Below, piece by piece: positions 36 to 25,090 of a stretch of DNA of 64,000 nt. The translations under genes and the position numbers were made by a program. The notes under the pieces are model-generated. The model did not search any database and was not told the origin of the DNA. It was given only the letters and a program-made list of their open reading frames with translations. The stretch spans positions 896,001-960,000 of the forward strand of contig OY730476.1 of assembly GCA_963422735.1 (NCBI GenBank). The letters run 5' to 3'. The first letter of the stretch is position 1. The number at the start of each line of letters is the position of its first letter. The stretch comes from Candidatus Latescibacterota bacterium (GTDB taxonomy: Bacteria > Latescibacterota > UBA2968 > UBA8231).

Positions 36-2645
36 ATGGACTACGCGAATTTGTTGCTGGTCTATCTCCACGATCCGGTCGATAAGGCCCTCGACATCCG
101 CAAGCACGAATCCCGCGCTGCCCGCTATGCTTCCCGGGCCCGCGGCTGGGACGCGACCCGCCGAGAAATCAAGCATTCGGCTCAGCTAGCGGACCCACTC
201 GCCGCCATCGCCGACCGCATCCCCATGCCGACCGCGGGCCGCAATGGCGAGCGTGCCATCGGTCCGGAAGACGGGAAGATCGAGGTACGCCATCCGGTGA
301 GCGCACAAGAGTACGTGCTGACCGGACTGGCCCTCGACGAGAACCGCGTACTGGATATTATCGGCTCTATCGTGGACGACCTGCCCGACGATCCGCGCAC
401 GCGCTTTCTCGCACTCTGGCGGCTGCTGCCCGAAAAGCTCGGTCTGCAGTTCGCCCTGCTGCCGGCCGACACCCGCGTCCCCGACCACACTCTGATCCAG
501 CACACGGGCATCACAAGCGGCCTTTGGGCTAGTGATGGAGCGCGCGGCCGCGCGTACCTGTCGCTGTCGCTCGGGCCGGTGCAGACATTCATTGCCGCCG
601 CCCGCAGCGTACGCGACCTGTGGTCGGGAAGCGCCATTCTGTCGTGGCTCGTCTTTCAGGGCATCCGTCCGGTACTCGACAAACTCGGCCCGACTGCGCT
701 CGTCTATCCAGCCTTGCGCGGCAATCCGCTGATGGACCTGTGGCTGCGCGAGCAGAATGGCTTGGAGGACATCGCACCGCTTCCGTCGAAGGAATCGCGC
801 CGGGCACCGTCCATTCCCAACCGCTTTGTCGCGCTCGTACCGTGGGGGACGGACGGCGCGGATGCACACGCCATGGCGGATGATTGTGTAGAGGCGGTCC
901 GTGCGGCTTGGCGGTGCCTCGCGGACGATGTGCGCGGCAGCCTCAACCCGACGTTATCGGGCATCGATCCCGGTTGGGCGCGCCGTTGGCAGGAACAGGT
1001 GGACCGCTTTTTTGAGTTGAGGATAGCTACCCTGCCCGAGCGCGACCTAGACGACAAGACCTTGGCCAAACTGATCGGCGGCGATAACTCGTTTGACGAC
1101 GTGTGGCCGGAGGCCGCCAAGGTGCGCGGGCTGGCCGACGCGATTCCATCGGCCGAGCGTCCCGGTTACGACCAATGCTCGGCCGGGCGCTGGCAGGCCC
1201 AGCTTGAAGCCTCAGCGCGGCTGATGGAAGCGCAGCGCTCCATTCGCCATGTCCCAAACACCCTGCAAGCCGCGTCGGGCGAACCTTCACCACCCAAGTG
1301 CAGCCTGCTCGGCTCCTATGAGCAAATGGGGCCGGCGGCTCTCGACGATTCGCGCGGCTTCTGGGAAGAGGCTGCTGCGAAACTTTCTGTAGAAGGCGTT
1401 CGACTGCGCACTGGTGAGCGCTTTTCCGCGGTCGCATTGTGCAAGCGGTTTGCGGCTCCGGCGACACTCGCCAAAGAGCTTCACCTCACACCGTCCGACT
1501 TGCGGTTCCCTGACACCGCGACCGTCGCCGCCGCGGAATGGTTGCACGACGCGGGTATCAACGCGAACGCGGTCCGGCGTGAACACGGCGACTGGAACGG
1601 ACGCTGGCTTCACCAAAAACGGCGGGATGACGTGGAGAAGGGCGACAAGTACCCGCCGGAGGTGGTTTGGGAGAAGATCAACGCGGCACGGAAGAAGAAT
1701 TCGCCTCCCTCCTACTACGCCGTCCTGGCCATGGATGCGGACCACATGGGCCACTGGCTCAAGGGCGACCACGCCCCCAAGGTGCGCGAGGTGCTGCACC
1801 CGAAGATGGTCGATTACTATGAGCAGGTTAACAGTGAGAAGGCCAGGGAGGGCCTTGATGCGAAGCGACCGGTCGGGCCGGCCCTGCACGCCTCCATCAG
1901 CGAAGCCCTCAACAATTTTGCCAGTCACGTTGCCCCCGGTATTGTGGAAGAGCACAAGGGCACGATGATCTACTCGGGCGGTGACGACGTCCTAGCCTTG
2001 CTGCCGGCGCGTCGAGCGGTCAATTGCGCGGCTGCCCTGCGCCGTGCGTTTCGCGGTGAGGACGGATCTGTACCCGGCTGGACGGAGAGAGACGGCCGCC
2101 AACTTCTGGTGATGGGCAATCGGGCCACCCTGTCCGCGGGTATTGCCGTCGTCCACTTCATGGAGGATCTGCGGTTGGCCTTGGGCGCTGCGCGCGACGC
2201 AGAGAAGGCGGCCAAGAACTCCGGACGGAACTGGCTGACGTTGCGCTTCATGCGCCGTTCCGGAGAGCATTCCGAGGCCGGTCTGTCGTGGGCGCTGGCA
2301 CAGTGGTTCCGAGAGTTGATCGCGATCTTCGCCGGCGGAGCTACGGACCGTTGGGCCTATCGGCTGCGTCAGGAACTACCGACCTTGCAAGCCCACGGCC
2401 TTCCCGAAGCGGCTGTGAGCGCCGAGATACGCCGTCTCGTGGACAGGACGATGGACGGTGCCGCATCGGATTCAAGCGGCCCGTCGGGTAAAGACGCGGA
2501 GCAGTGGTGGCGGGACTTTTCCGGCGCCGTTCTCCGGCATTCGAGGGAGAGCCAACGGGAGATCCCTACCCAGGCAAAGCGTCTTGAGACGTTCACCCTT
2601 TTGTGTCAAGGGGCGTCGTTCGTAGCGCGAGGTCACGATGGCTGA
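36..2645 (+). CDS. cas10: Type III-B Cas10/Cmr2 (869 aa)
   Basis: N-terminal LHDPxDK, PADTRVPDH, GPVQTFIAAARSVRDLWSGS, palm motifs MDADHMG and YSGGDDVLA, LSAGIAVVH; first gene of a cmr operon. Confidence 0.96.
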   Translation: MDYANLLLVYLHDPVDKALDIRKHESRAARYASRARGWDATRREIKHSAQLADPLAAIADRIPMPTAGRNGERAIGPEDGKIEVRHPVSAQEYVLTGLALDENRVLDIIGSIVDDLPDDPRTRFLALWRLLPEKLGLQFALLPADTRVPDHTLIQHTGITSGLWASDGARGRAYLSLSLGPVQTFIAAARSVRDLWSGSAILSWLVFQGIRPVLDKLGPTALVYPALRGNPLMDLWLREQNGLEDIAPLPSKESRRAPSIPNRFVALVPWGTDGADAHAMADDCVEAVRAAWRCLADDVRGSLNPTLSGIDPGWARRWQEQVDRFFELRIATLPERDLDDKTLAKLIGGDNSFDDVWPEAAKVRGLADAIPSAERPGYDQCSAGRWQAQLEASARLMEAQRSIRHVPNTLQAASGEPSPPKCSLLGSYEQMGPAALDDSRGFWEEAAAKLSVEGVRLRTGERFSAVALCKRFAAPATLAKELHLTPSDLRFPDTATVAAAEWLHDAGINANAVRREHGDWNGRWLHQKRRDDVEKGDKYPPEVVWEKINAARKKNSPPSYYAVLAMDADHMGHWLKGDHAPKVREVLHPKMVDYYEQVNSEKAREGLDAKRPVGPALHASISEALNNFASHVAPGIVEEHKGTMIYSGGDDVLALLPARRAVNCAAALRRAFRGEDGSVPGWTERDGRQLLVMGNRATLSAGIAVVHFMEDLRLALGAARDAEKAAKNSGRNWLTLRFMRRSGEHSEAGLSWALAQWFRELIAIFAGGATDRWAYRLRQELPTLQAHGLPEAAVSAEIRRLVDRTMDGAASDSSGPSGKDAEQWWRDFSGAVLRHSRESQREIPTQAKRLETFTLLCQGASFVARGHDG

Positions 2646-3720
2646 CGGTGATACTTTGCTCCGGCTGGAGATTGAGCCCGTCGATACGCTGTTCTTCCGC
2701 GACGCGCGGCCGTTTGAAGCGGCCAGCCGCGGAGCATCGGGTTTGCCCATGCCGCAGACCCTGACCGGTGCCGTGCGCAGCCTGCTACTGGAGCGGCACG
2801 GGGTGGATTTTAGGCGGCTGGGAGAACAGATGAAGAACGGGGCATCCTTTGCCCAAGCACTCGCCGAGTTCGGCCCTGAAGCCAGGGCTGTGGCTGACGT
2901 GCGGGTACGCGGCCCTTATTTCACGCTGTGCGGTGAGGTGCTGGTTCCAGCTCCGGCCAGCCTGAGACGAGAGAAGAAAACCGGAAAGCTCGTGCGAATC
3001 GACCCGCTCAAAACCCCACTGCCCGGTTGGCGACCAGAAGCTCAGGAGATGCGGCCGCTGTGGCGGCGTGGCCGGGAAGCCGTTGAAGCGGCGGATGGGT
3101 TCCTCAAGCCATCGGGCCTGCGCTGCTTCCTCAACGGAGACGTGCCGGACCCGGACGCATTGGTGCCACAAAAAGAAGTCTATGAATTTGACGACCGCAC
3201 CGGCATCGGCATTGACCCTAAGAGCAACGCCGCGGCCGAAAGTCTCATCTATGCCGTCAGTATGCTGGTGCTACGACCCAAAGCCGGCCTTTACGCCGAG
3301 GTGCGCGGCCCAGTTGACGCCTTGACCCCGCTTATTAAAACGAAAGACGAGCCGATCCTCATGCGCTTGGGCGGCGAAGGCCGGCATGTCGTCGTCCGCT
3401 CCAACGGTCAAGGCGCGGACTGGCCGGCGATTCCGCCCGTCTCGAACACGGGCCGGCTAGTGCTCCTGACCACGCCGGCCTATTTCAACGGCTGGAAACC
3501 GCCGGCATTCGAGCCGGTCGCCGCGGCTGTCGGCAACGGTCAAGCTGTCTCCGGCTGGGACTTGGCCCAAGGCGGCCCCAAGCCCAATCGCTTCATGGTG
3601 CCGGCCGGATCGGTCTATTTCTTGCAACCAAACGCCCCAAGCCCAGCCGAATTGGTCGCTGACGAAGACGCGAGCGTCGGCTGGGGCTGCTTTCTGGAGG
3701 GAAACTGGAACTATGTCTGA
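2638..3720 (+). CDS. cmr3: Cmr3 (Cas5-family RAMP)
   Basis: EPVDTLFFRDARPF, PMPQTLTGAVR, RLGGEGR, GWDLAQGGPKP..VPAGSVYF; overlaps cas10 stop. Confidence 0.95.
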   Translation: MADGDTLLRLEIEPVDTLFFRDARPFEAASRGASGLPMPQTLTGAVRSLLLERHGVDFRRLGEQMKNGASFAQALAEFGPEARAVADVRVRGPYFTLCGEVLVPAPASLRREKKTGKLVRIDPLKTPLPGWRPEAQEMRPLWRRGREAVEAADGFLKPSGLRCFLNGDVPDPDALVPQKEVYEFDDRTGIGIDPKSNAAAESLIYAVSMLVLRPKAGLYAEVRGPVDALTPLIKTKDEPILMRLGGEGRHVVVRSNGQGADWPAIPPVSNTGRLVLLTTPAYFNGWKPPAFEPVAAAVGNGQAVSGWDLAQGGPKPNRFMVPAGSVYFLQPNAPSPAELVADEDASVGWGCFLEGNWNYV

Positions 3721-4612
3721 CAAAACCTTGCTGTTCATTCACGCCCTGACCGGACTCCATCCCGGCAGCGGCACCGCCCTCGGCGTGGTCGATCTGCCGG
3801 TGCAGCGCGAGCGCCACACCGACTGGCCGACCATCCCCGGCTCGTCGCTCAAGGGCGTGATGCGGGCCGAATGCGCGAAGAATAACGAACAGAATGAAGA
3901 TGTCTTAACGGCATTCGGGTCAGCGACCAGTGCTGCGTCTAACCACGCCGGCCACGCCGGCGCGGTCGCTTTTTCAGACGCACGTATTCTCGCTTTCCCG
4001 GTGCGCTCACTGACCGGGGTGTTTGCTTGGGTGACGTGTCGCGACGTGTTGGACCGGTTTTCACGCGATCTCGGGCTTATCGGCGAAAACGACTTCCCGG
4101 CGGTTCCCGCGGTCGAGAAAGACAAAGCCGCCTGTGTCGAGCACAGCCCGCTGCTGGCGCACGACGGGTGCCTGATGTTGGAAGAGTTCGAGTTCTCGCG
4201 TGGTGGAGACGCACAGGAAATTGCGGACTGGATCGCAGCGCGGGCCGTGGAAGACGCCGGCACGGAAGACAGGCTGCGCTCGCATCTGGCCGTCCTCCAC
4301 AACGACGATTTCAACCACTTCGTCCGCAATGCCACCGAGGTGGTAGCTCGCGTCGGGCTTGACTCCGCAACAAAGACCGTGCGCACGGGCGCACTCTTCT
4401 ACGAGGAATACCTGCCGGCCGAGACCCTCTTTTACTCGCTGGTGATGTGCAGTGATAGCCGGCGCGAGCCACACACTAAGAGCGCGGCGGAGATTCTCGC
4501 ATGGCTGCGCCACATAGCACCCAAGTCTCTGCAAATCGGCGGCGGCGAGACGGTCGGCAAGGGCTTTTGCGCGGTTCGCTTTGACGGCACGGCAAGGGAG
4601 ACAGCGCGATGA
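3713..4612 (+). CDS. cmr4: Cmr4 (Cas7 backbone RNase)
   Basis: LHPGSG..VVDLPVQRE (catalytic Asp present), PGSSLKG, LFYEEYLPAE, LQIGGGETVGKG. Confidence 0.96.
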   Translation: MSDKTLLFIHALTGLHPGSGTALGVVDLPVQRERHTDWPTIPGSSLKGVMRAECAKNNEQNEDVLTAFGSATSAASNHAGHAGAVAFSDARILAFPVRSLTGVFAWVTCRDVLDRFSRDLGLIGENDFPAVPAVEKDKAACVEHSPLLAHDGCLMLEEFEFSRGGDAQEIADWIAARAVEDAGTEDRLRSHLAVLHNDDFNHFVRNATEVVARVGLDSATKTVRTGALFYEEYLPAETLFYSLVMCSDSRREPHTKSAAEILAWLRHIAPKSLQIGGGETVGKGFCAVRFDGTARETAR

Positions 4613-5022
4613 GCGACAACCGGCCCACCCTTGACCAACGTCGTGCGCAACACGCTTGGCAAGCCGTTGAACGCGCCCGCAACCTAAAGGATTCCAACGA
4701 CTTTGCCCGCGAGGCCAAACGTTTACCGATTCGCATCAAAACCGCCGGCCTAGGGCAGGCCCTCGCCTTCCTCCACGCCAAGGGGAAGGACGGCGAAGAC
4801 CATCGCAGTCAGTTGCTAAAGGAACTAGGCGATTGGATCCTGAAGGAGCGCAAATTGGCGGCTCACTCGCCGTGCAAGGACGCCCTGCTGCAAGCCATCA
4901 TCAACGGCAACGCCAACCTACTGCGCCGCGCCACCGAAGAAGCCCTGCTCTACTTGCAATGGCTGACCCGGTTCAGCGAGGCCGAACTCGGGACTGGAGA
5001 GGATGTGAGCGATGGCTCGTAG
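4609..5022 (+). CDS. cmr5: Cmr5 (Cas11 small subunit)
   Basis: TLDQRRAQHAW, LPIRIKTAGLGQALAFL, LQWLTRFSEA; ATGA overlap with cmr4. Confidence 0.93.
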   Translation: MSDNRPTLDQRRAQHAWQAVERARNLKDSNDFAREAKRLPIRIKTAGLGQALAFLHAKGKDGEDHRSQLLKELGDWILKERKLAAHSPCKDALLQAIINGNANLLRRATEEALLYLQWLTRFSEAELGTGEDVSDGS

Positions 5023-7327
5023 CTCCAGCCGTCCCCAACGCCGGGCGCATACCATGCCAGCCCCCAGAGCCGACCAACTTCTCGCAGGGCCGATTCTGCC
5101 CCAGCCCACGCGCAAGCTGATCGAGAAGGTTCGGGTCGAGTGTCGCCATGCCGGTCTGCAACTCGACAAGCTGTCGCCTGTAGGTGATGGTACGATGGAG
5201 GACCAGAAAGATGCCCTAGTCAAGGTACGCCAAACGCTCCGGGACGAGCCGCTGCTCAAAAACCTCCTCGATCGCCGCCGCGCCATGCTCCATTCGCTCG
5301 GTGCAGCGCGTCTCCCAATGACCACACGCGGCCCCTTGACCCTGCACCTGTCTCGGTCAGGCGCGTTAGAGAACGCCGGCATTGCCCTGCACCCCGTCTA
5401 TGGCTTCGTGTATTTGCCCGGCAGCGGCATCAAGGGTTTGATCCGCGCCTATGCCGAGACCGTGTGGGCGGCGGCTCAGCCCAACGAAGAGCAGGCGTGG
5501 CGGCGGATCGAAGAAGCCTTCGGCTGGAGCCCCGGGTCGGAGCGTCATAAGAAGGATTGGCGGCCGGGCGAAATAGAACCACAGCAAGACGCCGCGGCCG
5601 GCCGGCTAGTGTTTCACGACGCTTGGCCGACCCGCTGGCCCCGCCTGATCCTCGACGTCGTCAACAACCACCACGTCAAGTACTACGCGGGCGAAGACGA
5701 CCCCGGCGACTGGGAAGACCCGACCTTGGTCTATTTTCTCGCCCTTAACGGAGGCGAGAAGTTCGAGTTCGCAATCTCCGACCGTAAGCCGAACGATGAC
5801 GGCCTGCTGAAATTGGCAAGCGGCTGGCTAAAAGACGCGCTGACTGCCGAGGGTGCTGGCGCCAAGACCGCAGCCGGCTATGGCCGCTTCAAGCCGGCTG
5901 AAGGCCAAACTTCCGGGACACTCTCGCCCGATTTCACCAAGGCCGGTTTTGCCAGCGCGAGCTTTGACTTGAAGCTCGCCACCCCAGCCTTTCTCGCCGG
6001 TGCCGATCAGAAACGAGAGGACTGCGACCTGCGCCCGGCCACCCTGCGCGGCCTGCTGCGCTGGTGGTGGCGCACTATGCACGCGGCCCATCTCGACCGG
6101 GATTCGCTGAAGAAGCTGGAGACTGCGGTGTGGGGCGACGCGGAAGCGGGTAGCCCGATGCGGATTGCGGTGGACAATGTCAAAGTTGGAGAGCCAGAGC
6201 AGTACAATAAGAACGATCCACAATTCCAGTCCTTGCCGAGACCATCGCACGGGCAGCAAGTCACTCAGGGCTTATTCTACGCTTCTTACGGCATGGCAGA
6301 ACGCCACAAGCGTTGGTTTTGTCCTGACAGATCGCTTTGGCGCATAACCCTGACGGCCCGGCGCGGTTATTTCCAAAAAAATAAAAAAGACCCTGCTATC
6401 CTCCTTCCGCCCGACCAACTCTTGGAACAGGCCGCGGCGACCCTGTGGCTGCTGTGTCGCTTTGGTGGCGCAGGCTCGCGGTCGCGCAAGGGCTTTGGGT
6501 CCTTTGACGATATTGAGGTTGAGGGCATCGGATCGAAAGAGGACTGCATCGCATCGGCAAAGCGGTTGCGACAGCATTGCAAACTAGATGGACAACAAAG
6601 TCAGCCTGTCAAAGCACCCTCTTTAGAGGAGGCTCTGATTCTGGAACAGCGCACAGAGTGGACCAACTCTTGGTATGCGCTTGATCAAACCGGAATGGTA
6701 CTCCAACGGTTCGCCAAATCAATGAACGCCGAAGACCGGATTCCGCTCGGCCTGCCGCGCCGAGTGGGTCGAAGCCCCGATGCACGGAATCTCAAGGCTA
6801 AAAAAGGAGAGCGGTACGCCTCCCCGGCCCTTTGGAGCCTCGCGACGTGCAAAGACGGGACCCTGCTGGTCCGTCTGATCGCGTTCCCCGCTGCCTACCT
6901 GCCCGACAAGCACACCAGCAAGGCGACGCTCCAGAAACTCATTGCGTCTGCGCGGCAGGAATTGAGACAGCAAGCCCAGCAGTCCTCGCGCACAGGCGGG
7001 CGAGGCCGCGGACCGTCAGGCCCCAGAGCAGATCTCCCGAAAGCAAATGAGCGCGTCCAAGCTGAACTCTTAGAGGAGAAGACGAAGAAAGGCGGCTGGA
7101 AGGCCAAACACGTGGACAGCGGTTTACAAGGCCCGATACAAGACCCTCAGAATACGCCCGCCGACGCCGAGCCGGGCCAGTGCGTCGAACTTACGGTCGC
7201 CTATGTACGCGAGAAGGAAATGGGGTTCAAATGGGCCGCACCGCCGCCCAAAAAGAAAGTACCCGCCCAAGGCGGCGGTCGGAGACAGGGCGGCAACCCA
7301 AACTCCCGCTTGGGGAGACAACCATGA
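5012..7327 (+). CDS. cmr6: Cmr6-Cmr1 fusion with an extra C-terminal beta-rich domain (771 aa)
   Basis: Cmr6 motifs (LHPVYGFVYLPGSGIKG, FHDAWP, DVVNNHH, GAGAKTAAGYG) followed in frame by Cmr1 motifs (LATPAFLAGA, LRPATLRGLLRWWWR, FGGAGSRSRKGFG, RYASP). Confidence 0.9.
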   Translation: MARSSSRPQRRAHTMPAPRADQLLAGPILPQPTRKLIEKVRVECRHAGLQLDKLSPVGDGTMEDQKDALVKVRQTLRDEPLLKNLLDRRRAMLHSLGAARLPMTTRGPLTLHLSRSGALENAGIALHPVYGFVYLPGSGIKGLIRAYAETVWAAAQPNEEQAWRRIEEAFGWSPGSERHKKDWRPGEIEPQQDAAAGRLVFHDAWPTRWPRLILDVVNNHHVKYYAGEDDPGDWEDPTLVYFLALNGGEKFEFAISDRKPNDDGLLKLASGWLKDALTAEGAGAKTAAGYGRFKPAEGQTSGTLSPDFTKAGFASASFDLKLATPAFLAGADQKREDCDLRPATLRGLLRWWWRTMHAAHLDRDSLKKLETAVWGDAEAGSPMRIAVDNVKVGEPEQYNKNDPQFQSLPRPSHGQQVTQGLFYASYGMAERHKRWFCPDRSLWRITLTARRGYFQKNKKDPAILLPPDQLLEQAAATLWLLCRFGGAGSRSRKGFGSFDDIEVEGIGSKEDCIASAKRLRQHCKLDGQQSQPVKAPSLEEALILEQRTEWTNSWYALDQTGMVLQRFAKSMNAEDRIPLGLPRRVGRSPDARNLKAKKGERYASPALWSLATCKDGTLLVRLIAFPAAYLPDKHTSKATLQKLIASARQELRQQAQQSSRTGGRGRGPSGPRADLPKANERVQAELLEEKTKKGGWKAKHVDSGLQGPIQDPQNTPADAEPGQCVELTVAYVREKEMGFKWAAPPPKKKVPAQGGGRRQGGNPNSRLGRQP

Positions 7328-7392
7328 CATCCCCCAACAGCGACCACAAGTCCCTCGTCCGCCCGTCGGCACCAGCGATATTGAAAACCCGC
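7324..7392 (+). pseudogene. Frameshifted 5' relic of a CARF-protein gene
   Basis: ATG overlaps cmr6 stop (ATGA); reads MTSPNSDHKSLV-[1-nt deletion]-VGTSDIEN, versus MTSTNTSKKALVLTVGTGNVND at 8202. Confidence 0.6.
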
Positions 7393-7455
7393 TTAACCCA
7401 ATGCCTAGAGACCCCCTTCTCTGCATCATTGGAAATGCGATTGGAGGATGCCACT

Positions 7456-8205
7456 ATGGAGGTTGCACACTCATTTGCCGATGAACAAAAAAGAACCCCG
7501 AATGCTCCAACCGGCGAGCAAGGCTCGTCCGCTGCGGCTACTCTGCCGCCCCCATTGGAAAACGGCGATCGGCTCACGCGGGAGGAGTTTGAGCGACGCT
7601 ATGAGGCCATGCCCGACGTAAAGAAGGCAGAACTGATCAATGGAGTCGTATATATGGGTTCACCTGTTCGCTTTCGTGGTCATGGCAGACCGCACGTTCT
7701 ACTGCTCACTTGGCTAGGGATGTATAGTGCGCTCACGCCCGGGGTTCTTTGTGCGGATAACACCACAGTTCGCCTCGGGGCAGATAGCGAGCCGCAACCG
7801 GATGTCTTGCTGCGCCTAGAGCCAGAAACGGGTGGAAATTCGCGGATTAGTGCAGACGATTATGTGGAAGGCGCACCAGAGTTGTTGGCCGAAATCGCGG
7901 CTAGTAGTGCCTCGTACGATATGCACGATAAAATGGACGTCTATCGCCGCAGCGGAGTACAGGAATATCTCGTCTGGCGCGTGTACGACGAGCAGATTGA
8001 CTGGTTCGCTCTTCGTGACGGTGTGTACATCCGTCTGAGGCCCGATGAGTCTGGCGCGATTTCCAGTCGGGTATTTCCGGGGCTGCGGTTGTCCCTGTCC
8101 GCATTGTTGATGGGCAATGCGGCTCAGGTCGTGGCCGAGTTGCAGAAAGGACTGGGGACGGCCGAGCACACCGCGTTTGTCACCCGCCTCGGAGAACATA
8201 GATGA
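7456..8205 (+). CDS. Uma2/DUF820-family PD-(D/E)XK nuclease
   Basis: LENGDRLTREEFERRY, KAELINGVVYM, EPQPDVLL, GAPELLAEIAASS, KMDVYRRSGVQEYLVW; GGAGG RBS at 7443; frame is also open from 7324. Confidence 0.88.
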   Translation: MEVAHSFADEQKRTPNAPTGEQGSSAAATLPPPLENGDRLTREEFERRYEAMPDVKKAELINGVVYMGSPVRFRGHGRPHVLLLTWLGMYSALTPGVLCADNTTVRLGADSEPQPDVLLRLEPETGGNSRISADDYVEGAPELLAEIAASSASYDMHDKMDVYRRSGVQEYLVWRVYDEQIDWFALRDGVYIRLRPDESGAISSRVFPGLRLSLSALLMGNAAQVVAELQKGLGTAEHTAFVTRLGEHR

Positions 8206-9533
8206 CCAGTACCAATACCAGCAAAAAAGCACTAGTGCTGACTGTCGGCACGGGTAACGTCAATGACGTCGAGCGGACCTTGCTCGGGCCTATGCTTTTG
8301 AGCATTCGGGACGGCAAATGGGAGCGGATCGTCCTGCTTCCCTCTCACGAGACGCAAGAGGCTGCACAAGTCCTGTCCAAACGACTACAAGAAGAAAGCT
8401 ATTCCAACACCGCCATTGAGACGCTCCCTAAGCAGGGGCAGGAAAACGACGCCGATGCCTGTTTCGGGCATTTTGATTCCGCGTTGGCCCGGCTCGTCAA
8501 AAAGGGCTTTAAGCCGAACGATATTGTCGTGGACTTCACCCGGGGGACCAAGGCGATGAGCGCGGCCTTGGTGCTGGCGGCGATCGGCCGCGACATTCCG
8601 ATCCTGCGCTACGTTCACAGCGAGCAGTGCGGCGACGATCGCGGCATGGTCATCCCCGGCACCGAGAAGATCGGCGAGATCCAGACGACCTTGGCGACCG
8701 CACGCCGCCGCCTCGATCAGGCGAAAAATTTTACGCGCCAAGGCGACTTTGGCGCGGCCGTCGAACTGCTGCCCGATCTCGATGGACCTCTCGCCGGATT
8801 GTTTCCAGAGAAGTTGCGTACAGAAGCCCAAGCCCTGCGTGCAGCAGCGCGAATCTACGCTGCTTGGAATCGGCTCAACTACAAAACGGCACTCAAAGAG
8901 ATGAAGCAGCTTGGACCGACAGCAGCCAAGGCGGGCGAGTTCGCTCCCACGCCAGCAATGCGTACATGGCTCACGCGGCTGGCGAAAAAACCCGACCAAG
9001 CTAACCACACGGCGATGGCGGCGTATCTGCGGGCACTAGCCTGCGATCTGCTGGCCAACGCGGAACGGCGTCTTCGCGACGGGCATTTTGAGGACGCCCT
9101 GATTCGCGCTTACCGGGTGCTGGAACTGATCGGGCAGATCCGACTGTTCGACCAGGGCTACGACAGTGCCGCCCTGCCGTCGGATGATAAAACGATTGAG
9201 GCACTGCGCAAGAAACTGCGCAAGAAGAAGAGCAACAACTTCAGTACAGACGGAAAAACGGGGAAGTTGCAAGCACCCCGCGATTTGACCGCTCGGCTAC
9301 TGAACGATCTCGGCGACCCTCTCGCCAAACGATTGCTCAATTTCGCCGAGCAAGGCAAAGTTAAAACCAAAAGCCGCAACCACAGCATCCTGATCCACGG
9401 CTTTGCGGCCACCGCGCCAGCAGAAAAAGACCCTTTATGCGAGGTTTTGGCCAACCTCGAAAGCCTGCTGAACGAGGATGATCCAAAGGCCGGCGAGCGG
9501 CTAAAGGTGGCCAGAAGCTTGTCGTTTTCCTAA
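8202..9533 (+). CDS. CARF-HEPN cOA-activated ribonuclease (TIGR02710/Csm6-like effector)
   Basis: CARF LVLTVGTG and VDFTRGTKAMS; helical DLLANAERR..DALIRAYRVLE; HEPN-like RNHSILIHG. Confidence 0.88.
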   Translation: MTSTNTSKKALVLTVGTGNVNDVERTLLGPMLLSIRDGKWERIVLLPSHETQEAAQVLSKRLQEESYSNTAIETLPKQGQENDADACFGHFDSALARLVKKGFKPNDIVVDFTRGTKAMSAALVLAAIGRDIPILRYVHSEQCGDDRGMVIPGTEKIGEIQTTLATARRRLDQAKNFTRQGDFGAAVELLPDLDGPLAGLFPEKLRTEAQALRAAARIYAAWNRLNYKTALKEMKQLGPTAAKAGEFAPTPAMRTWLTRLAKKPDQANHTAMAAYLRALACDLLANAERRLRDGHFEDALIRAYRVLELIGQIRLFDQGYDSAALPSDDKTIEALRKKLRKKKSNNFSTDGKTGKLQAPRDLTARLLNDLGDPLAKRLLNFAEQGKVKTKSRNHSILIHGFAATAPAEKDPLCEVLANLESLLNEDDPKAGERLKVARSLSFS

Positions 9534-9544
9534 GGAGCAGCGTC

Positions 9545-10582
9545 TTGCTCACCCTGTACGTCACCGAACCGGCCGCCGTCGTCCGCCGCTCGGCCGGCTC
9601 CATCATCGTCACGCTCGACAAAGACCCCGACGGGTCGGGACCGCTGCCCGAGCGTCGCCGCCGCTTAATTGAGGTTGAGCCGCACCGCCTAGAGCTGATC
9701 GCGCTGGTGGGCCGTGCCCACATCACCTTAGACGCGACGCGGCTCTGCTTAGAGCAGGGCATTGCGATCGCTTGGTTTCGCAGGAACGGCGACTTCGTGG
9801 GTCGGCTCGTTCCGGAGCTATCGCGCACGGCAGATCTCCGCTTGGCCCAGTTTCGCCTAGCCGACGACGAGCGCCAAGCACTGCCGCTGGCCCAGACTTT
9901 TGTCGCGGCCAAACTCCACAATGCCGTAGGCGTACTCGCGGCCCTGCGCTCCAACCGCCGCAACGAGCCGACCTTGGGCCGCGCCATAACCGAACTCAAG
10001 GCCCTAGCCGCCAAGGTTTCCCAAACCTCTACCCGCGAGGTCTTGCTCGGGTTTGAAGGCGACGCCGCCCGCCGCTATTTCTCGGGCCTCAAAATCGGCT
10101 TCACCAGCGACATCCGCTTTACCGGCCGGGTCCGCCGGCCGCCGCCGGACCCGGCCAACGCCCTGCTCTCGTTTGGCTATGTGCTGTTGGCCAATGCCCT
10201 CGCCAGCCTGTTGGAGGCCCGCGGCTTTGACCCGTATCTCGGCTTCATGCACGTGGTGCGTTCTGGTCGGCCCAGCTTGTCCCTCGACCTGCTCGAAGAG
10301 CTGCGGCATCCGGTCGTCGATCGCTTTGTCTTGCGGGCCTGCAACTTGCGCCAACTGCGGCCCACGCACTTTGAGGCTGATCCAAAGCGGGGCGGCGTAC
10401 GGCTTACGCAAGCTGGATTGCGTATTTTCTTTTCTATTTGGGAAACGTTTATGGATACTCCCCTACCTGGAATTGGAGACAACATTTCGCCGGAAGACTT
10501 GATCCGCCGTCAGGCCGACCGCCTAGCCGATCATGTGCGTGGACGCGAGCCATACCAGCCCTTGCTTCTGCGCCGCGTATAA
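9545..10582 (+). CDS. cas1: Cas1 integrase
   Basis: LLGFEGDAARRYF, RRPPPDPANALLSFGY, DPYLGFMH, LDLLEELR; TTG start after TAAGGAG. Confidence 0.96.
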   Translation: MLTLYVTEPAAVVRRSAGSIIVTLDKDPDGSGPLPERRRRLIEVEPHRLELIALVGRAHITLDATRLCLEQGIAIAWFRRNGDFVGRLVPELSRTADLRLAQFRLADDERQALPLAQTFVAAKLHNAVGVLAALRSNRRNEPTLGRAITELKALAAKVSQTSTREVLLGFEGDAARRYFSGLKIGFTSDIRFTGRVRRPPPDPANALLSFGYVLLANALASLLEARGFDPYLGFMHVVRSGRPSLSLDLLEELRHPVVDRFVLRACNLRQLRPTHFEADPKRGGVRLTQAGLRIFFSIWETFMDTPLPGIGDNISPEDLIRRQADRLADHVRGREPYQPLLLRRV

Positions 10583-10593
10583 GGAGCGTTGCT

Positions 10594-10881
10594 ATGTCTC
10601 ATTATGTCGTCTGCTACGATGTGGTCGATAACCGCCGCCGCTACAAGGTGGCCGCTTGTCTGGATGCCTATGGCGACCGCGTACAGGACAGCGTGTTTGA
10701 ACTGCCGATTGATCGGGCGTTTTTGGACAAGTGCATCGCCGAACTGGCAGGTTTGATCGATGCGGACAAAGACAACATCGCCGTCTATCGCCTCTGCGCT
10801 GCTTGCGCGACCGAGCGTTTCTATCTTGGGACGGGCGAAGAGGCCATGCGCATCGGAGATGAGAAGGTCTTTATTGCCTGA
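10594..10881 (+). CDS. cas2: Cas2
   Basis: YVVCYDV..RRRYKVA..GDRVQDSVFE; AAGGAG RBS. Confidence 0.95.
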   Translation: MSHYVVCYDVVDNRRRYKVAACLDAYGDRVQDSVFELPIDRAFLDKCIAELAGLIDADKDNIAVYRLCAACATERFYLGTGEEAMRIGDEKVFIA

Positions 10882-11078
10882 GTGTCATTCGTAACCATTG
10901 CTCCCTCCACAAACGAGCGGAGGTTACGAATTTGACTAACCCGTTGAATTTCTTACTTTTATGCTTCACGCACTCACACGGACGCCACCTTGGCAATCAG
11001 CTTTTGCACTTCCACCCACTGGGTTACGAAAAACGTCCCAGCAAAGCCTTGTGAGACAGGCAGATAGCTGGCACAGGG
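10882..11078 (+). promoter_or_regulatory. CRISPR leader
   Basis: Non-coding, lower-GC stretch between cas2 and the first repeat; TTGACT-N16-TACTTT at 10932-10959; repeated GGTTACGAA motif. Confidence 0.7.
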
Positions 11079-12124
11079 GTGTGAAGTGCTGCCCCGCTTA
11101 TCAGGGGATTGAAACGAGAGAAGAGTCAGTTTCTCTCTCCACCGCGGAGTGGTGTGTGAAGTGCTGCCCCGCTTATCAGGGGATTGAAACGGATAGGGCG
11201 GCGTGCTCAATGACGTTCGTCATGCCATGCCCGGTGTGAAGTGCTGCCCCGCTTATCAGGGGATTGAAACTCAAGCTCAAGCCGAAAATCAAGGCGTTTG
11301 ACCTTAACCACTTCAGTGTGAAGTGCTGCCCCGCTTATCAGGGGATTGAAACTCTGCAATAGCCTCCCAGTCTTTTGTTCCCAGTGCTAGGGTTCGTGTG
11401 AAGTGCTGCCCCGCTTATCAGGGGATTGAAACCGGAAACTTCGCGTCGTTGGCCAACGCCAACGCCAGGGCGGTGTGAAGTGCTGCCCCGCTTATCAGGG
11501 GATTGAAACGAGAGCTTCCTGACGCTCGGCGTTATCGCGAACTTCGTGTGAAGTGCTGCCCCGCTTATCAGGGGATTGAAACCTACTAATGCCGGATCTT
11601 TCAATCCAGCAAGAAATTCGTGTGTGAAGTGCTGCCCCGCTTATCAGGGGATTGAAACTGGCGGCCCATCAGATATAGAATCCGCGAGTGAAAAATCGGT
11701 GTGAAGTGCTGCCCCGCTTATCAGGGGATTGAAACCTCCTCGGGGTCGGCCAGGTAACGGACTTCGTCGCCGCGGTGTGAAGTGCTGCCCCGCTTATCAG
11801 GGGATTGAAACTTGATATCGCCGGCTTGCTCGGAATCGATTTCAAGCGCGCGGTGTGAAGTGCTGCCCCGCTTATCAGGGGATTGAAACATACTGTGCGT
11901 TGTTCATCTGTGTGCTCCCTTGCGTTGGGTTGGGTGTGAAGTGCTGCCCCGCTTATCAGGGGATTGAAACCTTATCTTGTCTTCGCTCCATAATTCCAGG
12001 CAAGCTTTCCGTGTGAAGTGCTGCCCCGCTTATCAGGGGATTGAAACCTTATCTTGTCTTCGCTCCATAATTCCAGGCAAGCTTTCCGTGTGAAGTGCTG
12101 CCCCGCTTATCAGGGGATTGAAAC
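11079..12124 (+). CRISPR. CRISPR array: 14 identical 37-bp repeats GTGTGAAGTGCTGCCCCGCTTATCAGGGGATTGAAAC, 13 spacers of 36-45 bp
   Basis: Repeats start at 11079, 11154, 11234, 11316, 11396, 11473, 11546, 11622, 11699, 11775, 11853, 11934, 12011, 12088; CCCC/GGGG stem; 3' ATTGAAAC handle gives orientation. Confidence 0.99.
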
Positions 12125-12186
12125 AAAACCGTAGAGGCCGCCCCTATGGCTACCCTAACCATTCCTTTTCTTGTAACTTCCCCTTT

Positions 12187-13023
12187 ATGGATTGGCGCGA
12201 CTTCCTCAAATTCCTGCTCTCTGGTGTTCAGATAAAAGCGTGGCAACTACGGCTGGAAACGCCCGAAGTCCAAGCGACTACGCCGATGTTGCGGGGCGTC
12301 TGGGGACGGGCATTGCGGCATTTGGACGAGAAAGCGTATCGACGGGTATTCACCGGCGACCCACTAGGGCACCGGCGCATCCTCCGCTACATCCTGCGGC
12401 CGGCACCGCCCGACCCAGCCACCGCACCGGCCATTGAGTGGATCCTGCTCGGCGTAGAAGAGCACTTAGAGGACGTGTTATGGCGGGCTTGGGATGTGGC
12501 GGCCGGCATGGGGCTGGGGCCGCAGCGCGTACCATTCCGCATCCGAGCGCGGCTGCCGCTGGGCGCAGACTGCTGGAACCTAGCCGCTGCAGACTGGCCC
12601 CTGCCCGGCTGTCCGGCCACCACCCCCTGCCGCCTCCATTTCCCTACCTCCGTGCGCTTGCTCCGCCGCGGACACCTACTCACCGCTCCCAATGCAGAGG
12701 ACCTAGCCAAAGCGGCTGTGCGCCGCATCGCCGGGCTAGCGGGCATAACCGGTGGAGCCGATTATAGCTACTTAATACAGGCCGTCAGTCAACAGGCCGC
12801 CGGCCTAGAAGCCGCCCTTTGGCGCGGGCAGCGGCTCGACTTTGTGCGCTGGTCCGCTAGCCAACAGCGAGAGCTGAACATGCACGGCGTGGCCGGCGAT
12901 TTAAGTCTTCCGACCGGCCTCGGCCCACTCTGGCCGTTATTCGCCGCCGCTTGCTGGACCCACATTGGCAAAGGCACGATCTTTGGGCTAGGCCAACTAC
13001 ACATCACAAAAAATGGCGAGTAA
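12187..13023 (+). CDS. cas6: Cas6 crRNA-processing endoribonuclease
   Basis: MLRGVWGRAL near the N-terminus, C-terminal G-rich loop HIGKGTIFGLG, position next to the array. Confidence 0.88.
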   Translation: MDWRDFLKFLLSGVQIKAWQLRLETPEVQATTPMLRGVWGRALRHLDEKAYRRVFTGDPLGHRRILRYILRPAPPDPATAPAIEWILLGVEEHLEDVLWRAWDVAAGMGLGPQRVPFRIRARLPLGADCWNLAAADWPLPGCPATTPCRLHFPTSVRLLRRGHLLTAPNAEDLAKAAVRRIAGLAGITGGADYSYLIQAVSQQAAGLEAALWRGQRLDFVRWSASQQRELNMHGVAGDLSLPTGLGPLWPLFAAACWTHIGKGTIFGLGQLHITKNGE

Positions 13024-24540: not shown

Positions 24541-25090
24541 TCAAAATACATCGGCCATCTTCAACGCAAAGCCTTGCAATGTCGGCGAAGTCAATGTCGC
24601 CCCTTCCCCGTAGGTGTCCACGACATCGAAGCCGCGTTCGCCGCGCCGCAAGACCGTTATCGTTTTGGCGACGGTGTCCACCATCCAGTACTCGTTCACG
24701 CCATGTCTGGCATATAGCGTGCGCTTGAACGTCCTGTCGCGTTTAGCTGTGGAGGGAGATAGGATTTCGACGACCAAGTCCGGCGCGCCCTGAATGTTCG
24801 CGGGAGTGATGATGTGACCGCGCTTATTGGAGACGAACAGCAGATCGGGCTGCAGCACGTCCACATCCGACAGCACCACGTCGAAGGGTGCATCATAGAC
24901 CCCTCCCAAGCGATGCTCATTCACAAACTGAAACAGTGTCGATCCTAAGCGGGATGGAAACTCTCTGATGCAGTTCTCCAGGAGCAGGAATCATAACCAA
25001 CTCTCCGTCCAGAAGCTCGTAGCGTTTGTCTTCCGGCGTATTCAGGTAGTTTTCGTAGGTAAACTTGACTATGGGACTGGGGATAGTCAT
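24541..25090 (-). pseudogene. Uma2-family nuclease, frameshifted near 24950
   Basis: KFTYENYLNTPEDKRYELLDGEL in one frame; APFDVVL..VLQPDLLF..GAPDLVVEILSPST in another. Confidence 0.85.

What the first reader, a model, noticed from the sequence alone, without database searches (positions are those of the whole stretch)
7324..9533. Coupled Uma2-CARF cassette appears to have displaced an older CARF effector inside the type III-B operon
Seen: an ATG overlapping the cmr6 stop begins MTSPNSDHKSLV and, after a 1-nt deletion, VGTSDIEN. This is a diverged copy of the N-terminus of the intact CARF gene (MTSTNTSKKALVLTVGTGNVND). Between them lies an intact Uma2 nuclease whose stop overlaps the CARF start (ATGA, 8202-8205). 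Established: Uma2/DUF820 is a PD-(D/E)XK family of unknown role and is not a standard cas gene. Inference: an effector swap brought in Uma2 plus CARF as a unit, making Uma2 a candidate type III accessory nuclease (effector, ring nuclease or prespacer trimmer, since no Cas4 is present). The alternative is that Uma2 is a promiscuous passenger.
Basis: partly seen in the sequence, partly recalled or inferred. Interest (0 to 1): 0.75.

Follow-up and report, generated by a model that had tools for sequence, protein, structure and literature searches.

The report
Uma2 gene lodged in CRISPR effector slot
A type III-B CRISPR operon carries an intact Uma2 nuclease gene wedged into the start of its signal-sensing RNase gene, leaving dead stubs of two sensor genes, and the nuclease looks more like a long-term lodger than a working part of the immune system.

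Summary
The ATG at 7324 (ATGA with the cmr6/1 stop) opens a dead copy of the TIGR02710 CARF-HEPN N-terminus. It is the only non-self hit among 123,848 ATGs in the genome.

A second stub follows at 7401-7439. It holds 13 codons of an APE2256-type CARF gene that is intact in sister loci.

In relatives the usual layout is cmr6/1 directly followed by the CARF gene: 43 of 49 loci have a gap of 50 nt or less, and 27 have a stop/start overlap. So 7324 marks the gene's original start, and about 0.88 kb was inserted there.

Uma2 (7456-8205, own Shine-Dalgarno) has an intact PD-EXX-K motif and is under purifying selection (dN/dS 0.13-0.26). Intact Uma2 sits beside a CARF gene in eight related loci.

Against an accessory role:
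- Only 4 of 80 TIGR02710 loci and 6 of 54 APE2256 loci have Uma2 nearby, all from one group of MAGs.
- Its closest relatives in other phyla sit beside lepA, DUF885 and similar genes.
- No CARF fusions were found.

Effector turnover is supported. Arrival of Uma2 and CARF as one unit is not. Uma2 is most likely a hitch-hiking mobile nuclease gene.

The parts
36..2645 (+). cmr2/cas10
   Evidence: TIGR02577 232 bits (cut-off 79.4); Cmr2_N and palm2 domains. GGDD at residues 648-651.
2638..3720 (+). cmr3
   Evidence: PF09700 199 bits.
3713..4612 (+). cmr4
   Evidence: TIGR02580 252.6 bits.
4609..5022 (+). cmr5
   Evidence: PF09701 90.9 bits.
5012..7327 (+). cmr6-cmr1 fusion (771 aa)
   Evidence: TIGR01898 matches residues 121-294 and TIGR01894 matches residues 321-499. 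DNA homology to sister loci ends near 7234-7258, so the last ~70 nt are specific to this locus.
7324..7397 (+). Dead 5' stub of a TIGR02710 CARF gene (remT): MTSPNSDHKSLV, a 1-nt loss at 7360-7364, then VGTSDIENPLN
   Evidence: It sits at the usual start position of such genes. The VGT-DIENPL part is shared with L016, L017, L019 and L020.
7401..7439 (+). Dead 5' stub of an APE2256/TIGR02619-type CARF gene (remM): MPRDPLLCIIGNA
   Evidence: Unique among 123,848 ATGs. 28/39, 28/39 and 26/39 nt identical to the starts of the intact genes in L016, L019 and L022. Those genes match PF09651 at E 1e-30 to 1e-33.
7440..7455 (+). Uma2 leader with Shine-Dalgarno GGAGG (7443-7447)
   Evidence: The leader TGAYTGGAGGAYGNSACTATG is conserved in L017, L018, L059 and L131. 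In L131 it begins with the stop codon of the APE2256 gene.
7456..8205 (+). Uma2 family PD-EXX-K nuclease gene (249 aa)
   Evidence: PF05685 104.3 bits. H76, D116, E146 and K159 are invariant in 55 sequences. dN/dS 0.13-0.26.
8202..9533 (+). TIGR02710 CARF-HEPN gene (Csm6-like), intact
   Evidence: TIGR02710 135.6 bits (cut-off 83.9). R392, N393 and H399 invariant in 62 sequences. A profile of the family matches Csm6 chains 8jbb and 5fsh at E 8e-10.
9545..10582 (+). cas1
   Evidence: PF01867 279.5 bits.
10594..10881 (+). cas2 (start corrected to ATG 10594 behind AAGGAG)
   Evidence: PF09827 65 bits on ORF 10438-10881. Frame check.
11078..12124 (+). CRISPR array, 14 repeats of 37 nt
   Evidence: Weak CRISPR-DR10 matches, below the gathering score.
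12118..13023 (+). cas6
   Evidence: PF10040 41.7 bits.

Best explanation
Interval 7324-9533 is the accessory-effector slot of an otherwise ordinary type III-B (Cmr) CRISPR-Cas operon.

Ancestral state. It is still seen in most relatives across many phyla. The stop of cmr6/1 overlaps (ATGA) the start of a TIGR02710 CARF-HEPN gene, a Csm6-like RNase presumably switched on by the cyclic oligoadenylate that Cas10 makes. cas1-cas2 follow.

What happened here (inferred). In one group of uncultured bacteria, DNA was recombined into the first ~25 codons of that gene. It carried an APE2256-type CARF gene and a Uma2 nuclease gene. The junction was duplicated or re-supplied, so a full-length TIGR02710 gene survives downstream. 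Its old 5' end (7324-7397) was left dead upstream. The APE2256 gene was later deleted down to 13 codons (7401-7439).

Uma2 in the operon. No promoter-like or plus-strand terminator-like site was found between cmr6/1 and cas1, so Uma2 is probably read from the cmr transcript. It is probably translated from its own ribosome site at 7456, and its stop overlaps the CARF start.

Uma2's likely role. It is a horizontally mobile, self-maintaining PD-EXX-K nuclease gene that lodged in the slot and is inherited with it. It is not a component that signalling or interference needs. Its repeated copies, together with the conserved CARF 5' ends, supply homology for further reshuffling of effector genes.

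Shown: the anatomy, the stubs, the usual layout in relatives, selection on Uma2 and its gene contexts. Inferred: the order of events, the mode of recombination and Uma2's lack of an immune role.
For: Stubs:
- Both are statistically unique in the genome.

Usual layout in relatives:
- 49 of 80 TIGR02710 loci have a long cmr6/1 match upstream.
- In 43 of those 49 the gap is 50 nt or less. One of the 43, L092, is counted because my stop-finder misread it.
- In 27 of 49 the overlap is 4 or 1 nt.
- The 4 gaps over 500 nt hold Uma2 (L058, L059) or an APE2256 gene (L056, L112).

Uma2 is dispensable or optional:
- Only 4 of 80 TIGR02710 loci and 6 of 54 APE2256 loci have a Uma2-like ORF within 4 kb. 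All come from records labelled Binatia or Latescibacterota. The home-made HMM recovers all 13 Pfam-detected places in the own genome.
- Orthologous cmr loci without Uma2: L054, L061, L130, L136 and G018.
- Decayed or truncated copies: L117, the second copy in G007, L022 and L135.
- The CARF homolog P0024 carries a leftover of the Uma2 leader.

Mobility:
- 18 of 24 loci holding close Uma2 relatives show no match to this locus's Cas proteins.
- Their neighbours are lepA (2), DUF885 (2), DUF1508, an MmeI-type R-M gene and transporters.
- None of the 25 families listed for 92 neighbour ORFs is a Cas family.
- L023 is a non-CRISPR copy nested inside the cmr-linked clade (support 99/98 with L017).
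- 7,994 of the 8,000 scored homologs reach E 1e-20 or better, at 60-88% identity in several phyla.
- The own genome has 13 Uma2 matches.
- None of the 9 longer fused forms carries a CARF or Cas domain.

Separate history from its neighbours:
- Uma2 dS is below every cmr gene's dS in 5 of 5 loci, and below the CARF gene's in 2 of 2.

Rearrangement footprints at Uma2's borders. The clearest is L059, where a 26-nt direct repeat (81% identical, 836 nt apart) flanks Uma2.

Literature:
- COG4636/Uma2 proposed as proliferating selfish elements (PMC551604; abstract and section 6 read).
- Proposed as a likely solo toxin that forms paralog cassettes (PMC2701414; passage read).
Against: - Uma2 is not decaying in the cmr-linked loci. 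dN/dS is 0.13-0.26 in 15 of 15 pairs, the same range as cmr genes (0.17-0.27) and cas1 (0.11-0.22). The PD-EXX-K residues are invariant.
- Intact Uma2 lies beside a CARF gene in 8 related loci: window, L016, L017, L018, L019, L020, L059, L131. It stays there when the CARF gene behind it differs (TIGR02710 or APE2256 type) and when the effector-complex module in front differs (Csm5-type in L017).
- Its stop overlaps the next start for both CARF families: ATGA in the window, AATGCCTAG in L019 and in the G007 fragment.
- Uma2 genes also lie inside two type III-B clusters of Microcystis aeruginosa FACHB-524 (PMC11855584, passages read) and near type V-A systems (PMC9067536, passage read).
- All Uma2-bearing loci here are kin, so both the presence counts and the absence counts rest on few independent events.
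- Synonymous distances above 1 (NG86) are close to saturation.
Confidence: 0.55

Rival explanations
1. Uma2 is a real accessory nuclease of the type III system in this lineage. One version: a DNA-cutting arm working with the CARF effectors, like a Can2/Card1 enzyme split into two genes (that comparison is recalled, not tested here). It would be kept because it improves immunity.
For: - Purifying selection equal to that on cas genes.
- Intact catalytic motif.
- Constant position in front of two unrelated CARF families in 8 loci, with overlapping stop and start codons.
- Co-transcription is likely: no promoter-like or plus-strand terminator-like site in 6900-9700.
- Uma2 inside Microcystis type III-B clusters (PMC11855584, passages).
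Against: - 76 of 80 TIGR02710 loci and 48 of 54 APE2256 loci lack Uma2.
- Same-group cmr loci lack it.
- The nearest relatives in other phyla sit in unrelated contexts.
- It has no sensor domain. None of the 9 longer forms is fused to CARF, SAVED or Cas.
- Truncated and frameshifted copies are tolerated inside loci.
- Strong sequence conservation is a property of the whole subfamily whatever its context.
Confidence: 0.25
2. A foreign cassette carrying Uma2 plus a TIGR02710 gene replaced an older, diverged TIGR02710 gene. The stub at 7324 and the present gene would then be different alleles, not two copies of one 5' end.
For: - The two N-termini share 10 residues, but 7 of the 9 shared residues other than Met use different codons (Ser TCC against AGT, for example) (counted by hand). 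That fits long separate evolution as coding sequence.
- An arrangement of APE2256 gene, then Uma2, then TIGR02710 gene exists on its own in L131. It could serve as a donor.
- One-sided homologous recombination anchored in cas1 would give exactly this layout (inference).
Against: - Uma2 and the adjacent CARF gene have different synonymous distances in 2 of 2 loci.
- CARF identity tracks cmr6/1 identity across loci: 68 and 69% in L059, 66 and 65% in L054, 63 and 64% in L058, 55 and 63% in L061. This suggests the CARF gene is resident.
- The stub shares M-T-S-x-N-x-x-x-K with this locus's own gene in the hypervariable first nine residues. Orthologs elsewhere share less.
- The codon differences are also what neutral decay of a duplicate would give.
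- In L059 the flanking direct repeat points to duplication of the junction.
Confidence: 0.25
3. The similarity at 7324 is chance or compositional, and there is no gene remnant.
For: DNA identity is low. The best exact run is only 8 nt.
Against: - Unique among 123,848 ATGs; 3 of 1500 random segments reach its score.
- It sits at the usual start position, with ATGA.
- Homologous stubs occur in L016, L017, L019, L020 and L059.
- It resembles family N-termini such as P0036, MTTHSDSKKALILTVGTGNIDNPE.
Confidence: 0.02

Closest known systems
Usual type III-B loci with a TIGR02710 (Cas02710, Csm6-like) CARF-HEPN gene between cmr6/1 and cas1
   Same: Same gene order and families: cmr2-3-4-5, a cmr6/cmr1 fusion, TIGR02710, cas1-cas2 and an array. 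Cas10 has GGDD; the HEPN motif has R-N...H. The family profile matches solved Csm6 chains (5fsh, 8jbb).
   Different: Here the cmr6/1-CARF junction is split by ~0.88 kb: two dead CARF 5' stubs plus an intact Uma2 gene. 43 of 49 relatives have no such insert.
Type III-B clusters 4 and 5 of Microcystis aeruginosa FACHB-524, reported with 'accessory' Uma2, Csx1 and CARF genes (PMC11855584; passages read)
   Same: A Uma2 gene lies inside a Cmr operon that has a cmr1-6 fusion and a CARF gene. Its function is untested there too.
   Different: In cluster 4 the listed order places Uma2 between cmr4 and cmr5, not in front of the CARF gene. The host is a cyanobacterium very rich in Uma2 copies. No stubs or selection analysis are reported. 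I did not compare those sequences.
Uma2 / DUF820 / COG4636 family of PD-(D/E)XK proteins (PMC551604; PMC2701414)
   Same: Pfam match. PD-EXX-K arrangement with the conserved His. Multi-copy in the genome (13 matches). Horizontal spread. Truncated extra copies.
   Different: This copy belongs to a very conserved subfamily with an N-terminal leader and a C-terminal tail (…ELQKGL.TAEHAAFVARLG). In this lineage it is fixed at one operon position.
Can1/Can2/Card1: CARF domains fused to PD-(D/E)XK nucleases
   Same: A CARF sensor and a PD-(D/E)XK nuclease in one type III effector slot.
   Different: Here they are separate genes. Uma2 has no sensor domain, no fusion was found, and the CARF protein already has its own HEPN effector domain.
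APE2256 / TIGR02619 family CARF proteins (deposited as 8phb, 7pq2, 3qyf)
   Same: The 13-codon stub at 7401-7439 matches the start of this family's genes in sister loci.
   Different: Only the stub remains in this genome. No intact copy was found among its ATG starts.

Membership tests
Type III-B (Cmr) CRISPR-Cas | Cas10/Cmr2 with a cyclase palm domain | tested here: met
   TIGR02577 232 bits; palm2 domain; GGDD at 648-651.
Type III-B (Cmr) CRISPR-Cas | Cmr3, Cmr4, Cmr5, Cmr6 (and Cmr1) subunits; array and Cas6 | tested here: met
Uma2 (PF05685 / COG4636) | Profile match above the curated cut-off | tested here: met
   104.3 bits against 27.
Uma2 (PF05685 / COG4636) | PD-EXX-K active-site arrangement with a conserved His (as defined in PMC551604, section 6) | tested here: met
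   H76, P115-D116, E146 and K159 are invariant in 55 aligned sequences. Matching these positions to the paper's residues is my own reading.
Uma2 (PF05685 / COG4636) | Nuclease activity | not testable with these tools
   No biochemical report on any Uma2 protein turned up in the searches.
TIGR02710 / Csm6-like CARF-HEPN | Profile match above the cut-off; HEPN R-X(4-6)-H motif | tested here: met
   135.6 bits against 83.9. RNHSILIH at residue 392, with R392, N393 and H399 invariant.
TIGR02710 / Csm6-like CARF-HEPN | cOA-activated RNase | not testable with these tools
   Inferred from family membership only.
Type III accessory (CRISPR-linked) gene, as a label for Uma2 | Repeated co-location with type III genes in independent lineages | tested here: not met
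   4 of 80 and 6 of 54 loci, all from one group of kin. None of the 15 loci from other phyla matches this locus's Cas proteins. The Microcystis case (PMC11855584) is the one independent instance I saw.
Type III accessory (CRISPR-linked) gene, as a label for Uma2 | A sensor domain (CARF/SAVED), or fusion to one | tested here: not met
   Only PF05685 in Pfam and no NCBIfam family. None of the 9 longer homologs carries such a domain.
Cas4 (the prespacer-trimmer idea) | Cas4 profile match and a four-cysteine Fe-S cluster | tested here: not met
   No Cas4 family. The 249-aa protein has a single Cys. The usual loci have cas1-cas2 with neither Cas4 nor Uma2.
Ring nuclease (the idea for Uma2) | CARF-type or other known ring-nuclease fold or profile | tested here: not met
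   No such family. The NF040951 ring-nuclease model weakly matches the APE2256-type genes of sister loci, not Uma2.
Self-inserting mobile nuclease gene (homing-like) | Insertion flanked by a duplicated target, in different contexts | tested here: inconclusive
   A 26-nt direct repeat flanks Uma2 in L059. The window's two CARF 5' copies flank it too. No convincing flanking repeat in 6 non-CRISPR loci.

The most novel reading that the evidence does not exclude
Uma2 genes are the recombination module of a cassette-exchange system for CRISPR accessory effectors. The nuclease, or simply its repeated and highly conserved gene copies, provides the break and crossover points. Units of Uma2 plus a CARF effector then move between type III loci, leaving the 5' stubs seen at Uma2's borders.
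Probability: 0.15. Interest if true: 0.7.

Novelty: new member of a known kind. Interest (0 to 1): 0.4.

Why it matters
Type III CRISPR systems are known for swapping accessory effectors, but the physical traces of a swap are rarely this legible. Two nested gene stubs, a preserved ancestral start codon, and sister loci that still hold the intact versions let the order of events be reconstructed and tested.

The case also gives a clean natural set for asking whether Uma2 does anything for immunity. Uma2 is one of the most abundant bacterial nuclease families with no known function. Closely related cmr operons exist with Uma2, without it, and with broken copies.

If Uma2 is only a lodger, annotators should stop listing it as a Cas accessory gene on position alone.

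Tried and rejected
- Complex prediction of Uma2 with the TIGR02710 protein, using alignments A3 and A2: no verdict. It counts neither way.
- RNA evidence: no RNA holder was listed. The one run guessed to be RNA gave only short chimeric pieces, so nothing can be said on expression.
- Laid contigs: one contig of a separate study spans 7019-8700 with the same layout. No joints skip Uma2.
- The search for related loci with the single CARF protein found nothing. I repeated it with alignment A2.
- DNA-level alignment of the two CARF 5' copies is uninformative.
- Idea that ATTGAAAAC in the stub is a decayed CRISPR repeat: no Rfam match in 7000-11000 at E 0.1 or better. Dropped.
- I first read PLLCI (7416-7430) as a continuation of the TIGR02710 stub. 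The APE2256 stub explains it better.
- Flanking target duplications around Uma2 in non-CRISPR loci: none convincing.
- Fused Uma2-CARF proteins: none.
- Earlier notes of this scan: nothing on Uma2.
- Error of mine: the 'cas2' query was translated in the wrong frame (found). Its hits show DNA-level homology only. Its identities and dN/dS values are void. The script stopped on it after printing the other rows.
- Rows left out of the tree as partial: L035, L038, three partial own paralogs, and L039.
- Systematic type III accessory-gene surveys that I recall (Shmakov 2018, Shah 2019) were not seen here.

Full report
OBSERVATION. The window opens with a complete type III-B operon on the plus strand:
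- cmr2/cas10 36-2645
- cmr3 2638-3720
- cmr4 3713-4612
- cmr5 4609-5022
- a cmr6-cmr1 fusion 5012-7327
- a Uma2 gene
- a TIGR02710 CARF-HEPN gene 8202-9533
- cas1 9545-10582
- cas2 10594-10881
- a 14-repeat array 11078-12124
- cas6 12118-13023
.

The ATG at 7324 shares ATGA with the cmr6/1 stop and reads MTSPNSDHKSLV. Five bases later (the intact gene has six) the +2 frame reads VGTSDIENPL. The intact gene reads MTSTNTSKKALV-LT-VGTGNVND. DNA identity is low, but the protein-level match is not chance:
- Among all 123,848 ATGs of the genome, only the gene itself and 7324 score 33 or more over 12 codons.
- Only 3 of 1500 random 132-nt segments reach the frameshift-tolerant score of 36.

The stub also resembles natural N-termini of the family, such as P0036 MTTHSDSKKALILTVGTGNIDNPE.

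A SECOND STUB. Directly after the first stub, 7401-7439 reads MPRDPLLCIIGNA. This is the start of a different CARF gene, MPRHTL(L/I)CT(V/I)GTS. That gene is intact (374-394 aa) in sister loci L016, L019, L022 and in G007. There it matches Cas_APE2256 (E 1e-30 to 1e-33) and TIGR02619. The stub is 26-28 of 39 nt identical to those starts. It is the only ATG of 123,848 scoring 41 or more. The composite VGT-DIENPL...MPR..LLC is shared with L016 over about 75 nt.

THE USUAL LAYOUT. An alignment of 62 homologs of the CARF protein brought in 80 loci from many phyla.
- In 49 a long cmr6/1 match lies upstream.
- In 43 of those 49 the gap to the CARF start is 50 nt or less. For one, L092, my stop-finder misfired; one search shows cmr6/1 ending at 4000 and the CARF gene starting at 4001.
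- In 27 the stop and start overlap by 4 or 1 nt, typically as ATGA.

So 7324-7327 is the ancestral start of the CARF gene, still in place. The four gaps over 500 nt hold either Uma2 (L058, L059) or an APE2256-type gene (L056, L112).

UMA2-BEARING RELATIVES. A search with Uma2 gave 24 loci. Six also match this locus's Cas proteins.
- L016, L018, L019 and L020 (L020 duplicates the G007 locus) carry cmr2 through cmr6/1, then Uma2, a CARF gene and cas1.
- L017 carries a Csm5-type module, then Uma2.
- L022 is a decayed locus.

With L059 and L131, intact Uma2 lies beside a CARF gene in eight loci. All come from records their depositors label Binatia or Latescibacterota.

The gene behind Uma2 varies:
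- TIGR02710 in the window, L018, L020 and L059.
- APE2256 type in L016 and L019.
- A distant APE2256 type in L017.
- Both in G007.

Footprints of rearrangement surround Uma2:
- L016 has a TIGR02710 stub (MPTTRTNSSK-VGTNDIENPL) behind Uma2.
- L017 has MMCAKNDKKVLVLTIDT* behind Uma2.
- L019 has the APE2256 start twice.
- G007 has a truncated, frameshifted second Uma2 between its two CARF genes.
- L059 has MTTYTSVQSDA* in front of Uma2, and a 26-nt direct repeat (81% identical, 836 nt apart) made of the cmr6/1 end plus ATGACGA on both sides.
- L136 has a ~170-nt duplication of the cmr6/1 end and CARF start around another insert.

In L131 the order is APE2256 gene, Uma2, TIGR02710 gene. That is the order of the window's stub, gene and gene. 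There the Uma2 leader begins with the APE2256 stop codon.

LOCI WITHOUT UMA2. Of the 80 TIGR02710 loci, 76 have no Uma2-like ORF within 4 kb. Of 54 APE2256 loci, 48 have none. The HMM used recovers every Pfam-detected place in the own genome. Within the same group of MAGs, several orthologous cmr loci lack Uma2:
- L054 (cmr6/1 65% identical, ATGA overlap)
- L061
- L130
- L136
- G018, where cmr6/1 runs straight into the 3' part of cas2 and a 29-repeat array

More distant CARF homologs in G044, G053, G037 and G018 have no Uma2 nearby, although those genomes hold 13-21 Uma2 matches each.

UMA2 ITSELF. The frame from 7324 is open into Uma2 (293 aa). The region upstream of 7456 differs in length, frame and stops among relatives. 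All share an ATG behind a GGAGG-like site, so 7456 is the likely start.

The protein matches PF05685. H76, D116, E146 and K159 are invariant in 55 sequences. This is the PD-EXX-K arrangement described for the family (PMC551604, section 6). By sequence it matches two solved chains, 6okh (named only 'Uncharacterized protein') and 9y1l.

dN/dS among the six cmr-linked genes compared is 0.13-0.26 in 15 of 15 pairs. That is like cmr genes (0.17-0.27), cas1 (0.11-0.22) and the CARF gene (0.12-0.23).

In a tree of 29 sequences, the six cmr-linked copies plus one non-CRISPR copy (L023) form a clade (95/91). Two further non-cmr copies of the same group (L021, L022) are its sister. The seven own-genome paralogs placed in the tree are very distant.

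The subfamily is huge and strongly conserved. 7,994 of the 8,000 scored homologs reach E 1e-20 or better, at 60-88% identity, including cyanobacterial and Poribacteria records. The 15 loci from other phyla show no match to this locus's Cas proteins. Immediate neighbours include lepA (2), DUF885 (2) and DUF1508. None of the 25 families listed for 92 neighbour ORFs is a Cas family; 98 families matched in all and 73 were not shown. Nine longer homologs are fused to unrelated domains, never to CARF or Cas.

UNIT OR NOT. Uma2's synonymous distance to each sister locus is below that of every cmr gene in 5 of 5 loci. It is below that of the adjacent TIGR02710 gene in 2 of 2 (0.73 against 1.38; 0.90 against 1.22 or 2.68). 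It is closer to that of cas1.

CARF identity tracks cmr6/1 identity across loci. This suggests that the CARF gene is resident and that Uma2 has been exchanged or homogenised more recently. Values above 1 are near saturation, so this is an indication only.

The stub shares M-T-S-x-N-x-x-x-K with this locus's own gene in the hypervariable first nine residues, which fits a duplicated 5' end. Seven of the nine shared residues other than Met use different codons. That fits either an old duplicate or a foreign allele.

HOW IT MOST LIKELY WORKS. The immune system is a standard Cmr complex. Its Cas10 has the GGDD cyclase motif. It has a Csm6-like CARF-HEPN RNase with R392, N393 and H399 intact. cOA signalling is inferred from these families.

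No promoter-like site and no plus-strand terminator-like site lie between 6900 and 9700. Uma2 and the CARF gene are therefore probably read from the cmr transcript.

The insert is best explained by recombination into the first ~25 codons of the CARF gene, with the junction duplicated. Either a single crossover of a circular intermediate or a one-sided homologous event anchored in cas1 would do this. Both are established routes and are inferred here. Deletion of the APE2256 gene followed.

Uma2 behaves like the proliferating, horizontally moving gene described for COG4636 (PMC551604 abstract; PMC2701414 passage). It is under selection wherever it sits. It is optional for the systems it sits in, and it is able to leave (L023) or decay (L117, second copy in G007).

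I rate:
- the lodger reading at about 0.55;
- an accessory role at about 0.25;
- an active role of Uma2 in effector shuffling at about 0.15, as the boldest reading not excluded.
These readings overlap.

LITERATURE. Searches for Uma2, DUF820, COG4636 and PF05685, with or without CRISPR, found no functional study of a Uma2 protein. They found one paper that lists Uma2 as an accessory gene inside type III-B clusters of Microcystis aeruginosa FACHB-524, without testing it separately (PMC11855584, passages). Another passage notes Uma2 genes near type V-A systems (PMC9067536).

So the presence of Uma2 in Cmr operons is in print. I did not find these in those searches:
- the stubs;
- the ancestral junction;
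- the lineage-wide conservation;
- the selection data.

Supplementary tables of the systematic accessory-gene surveys could not be seen.

LIMITS.
- All Uma2-bearing loci are kin, so the counts are not independent.
- The order of events is inferred.
- There are no expression data.
- The complex prediction gave no verdict.
- My cas2 query was mis-framed until, so its numbers are void.

Noticed in passing
G000:C1:894877-895446 (-), about 0.6 kb upstream of the window start; window 24544-24990 (-): Two further Uma2 paralogs lie within 26 kb of the CRISPR locus, one just upstream of cmr2. In the tree they are distant from the cmr-linked copy.
   Followed up: partly
window 7304-7327: The last 8 codons of cmr6/1 (SRLGRQP*) resemble the Uma2 C-terminus plus ATGA junction of L017 (ARLGDSR*). 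The cmr6/1 tail after ~7258 is specific to this locus. It may be a third stub, from a Uma2 3' end, but only 13 of 24 nt match.
   Followed up: partly
window 7365-7397, compared with L016:6770-6803, L019 and L020: The non-coding stub segment GTCGGCACCAGCGATATTGAAAACCCGCTTAA is 27 of 32 identical between the window and L016. That is more conserved than synonymous sites of the neighbouring genes, and it lies on opposite sides of Uma2 in the two loci. No Rfam match. Unexplained.
   Followed up: partly
window 11934-12087: Two adjacent repeat-spacer units are 100% identical over 77 nt, so a spacer is duplicated in the array.
   Followed up: no
L136:3290-3760 and L117:3325-3560, 3715-3960: A small coiled-coil gene (MTAYTIDTHETVRQ...) is inserted at the cmr6/1-CARF junction in L136, between ~170-nt direct repeats and next to a 22-codon TIGR02710 stub. 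Copies of the same gene interrupt the decayed Uma2 in L117.
   Followed up: no
L053 (G018:C1:4678000-4697000, reverse strand): An orthologous cmr operon runs from cmr6/1 straight into the 3' part of cas2 and a 29-repeat array. It has no cas1, CARF gene or Uma2.
   Followed up: partly
L014:8776-8950 (-) in G007: A truncated, frameshifted second Uma2 copy (C-terminal ~55 residues) lies between the TIGR02710 and APE2256 genes. Its stop overlaps the APE2256 start.
   Followed up: yes
protein P0024 (homolog of the CARF protein): Its N-terminus, MPIHHSSKIADEQKSTRHAPTSKKALVLTVGTG, contains a piece resembling the Uma2 leader (FADEQKRTPNAP). This suggests a locus where Uma2 was deleted. Its context could not be fetched.
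   Followed up: no
L131 and L061 (adjacent stretches of one record): An APE2256 gene, Uma2, a distant TIGR02710 gene and a cas1 fragment sit directly upstream of a second, complete cmr operon that has its own TIGR02710 gene and no Uma2.
   Followed up: partly
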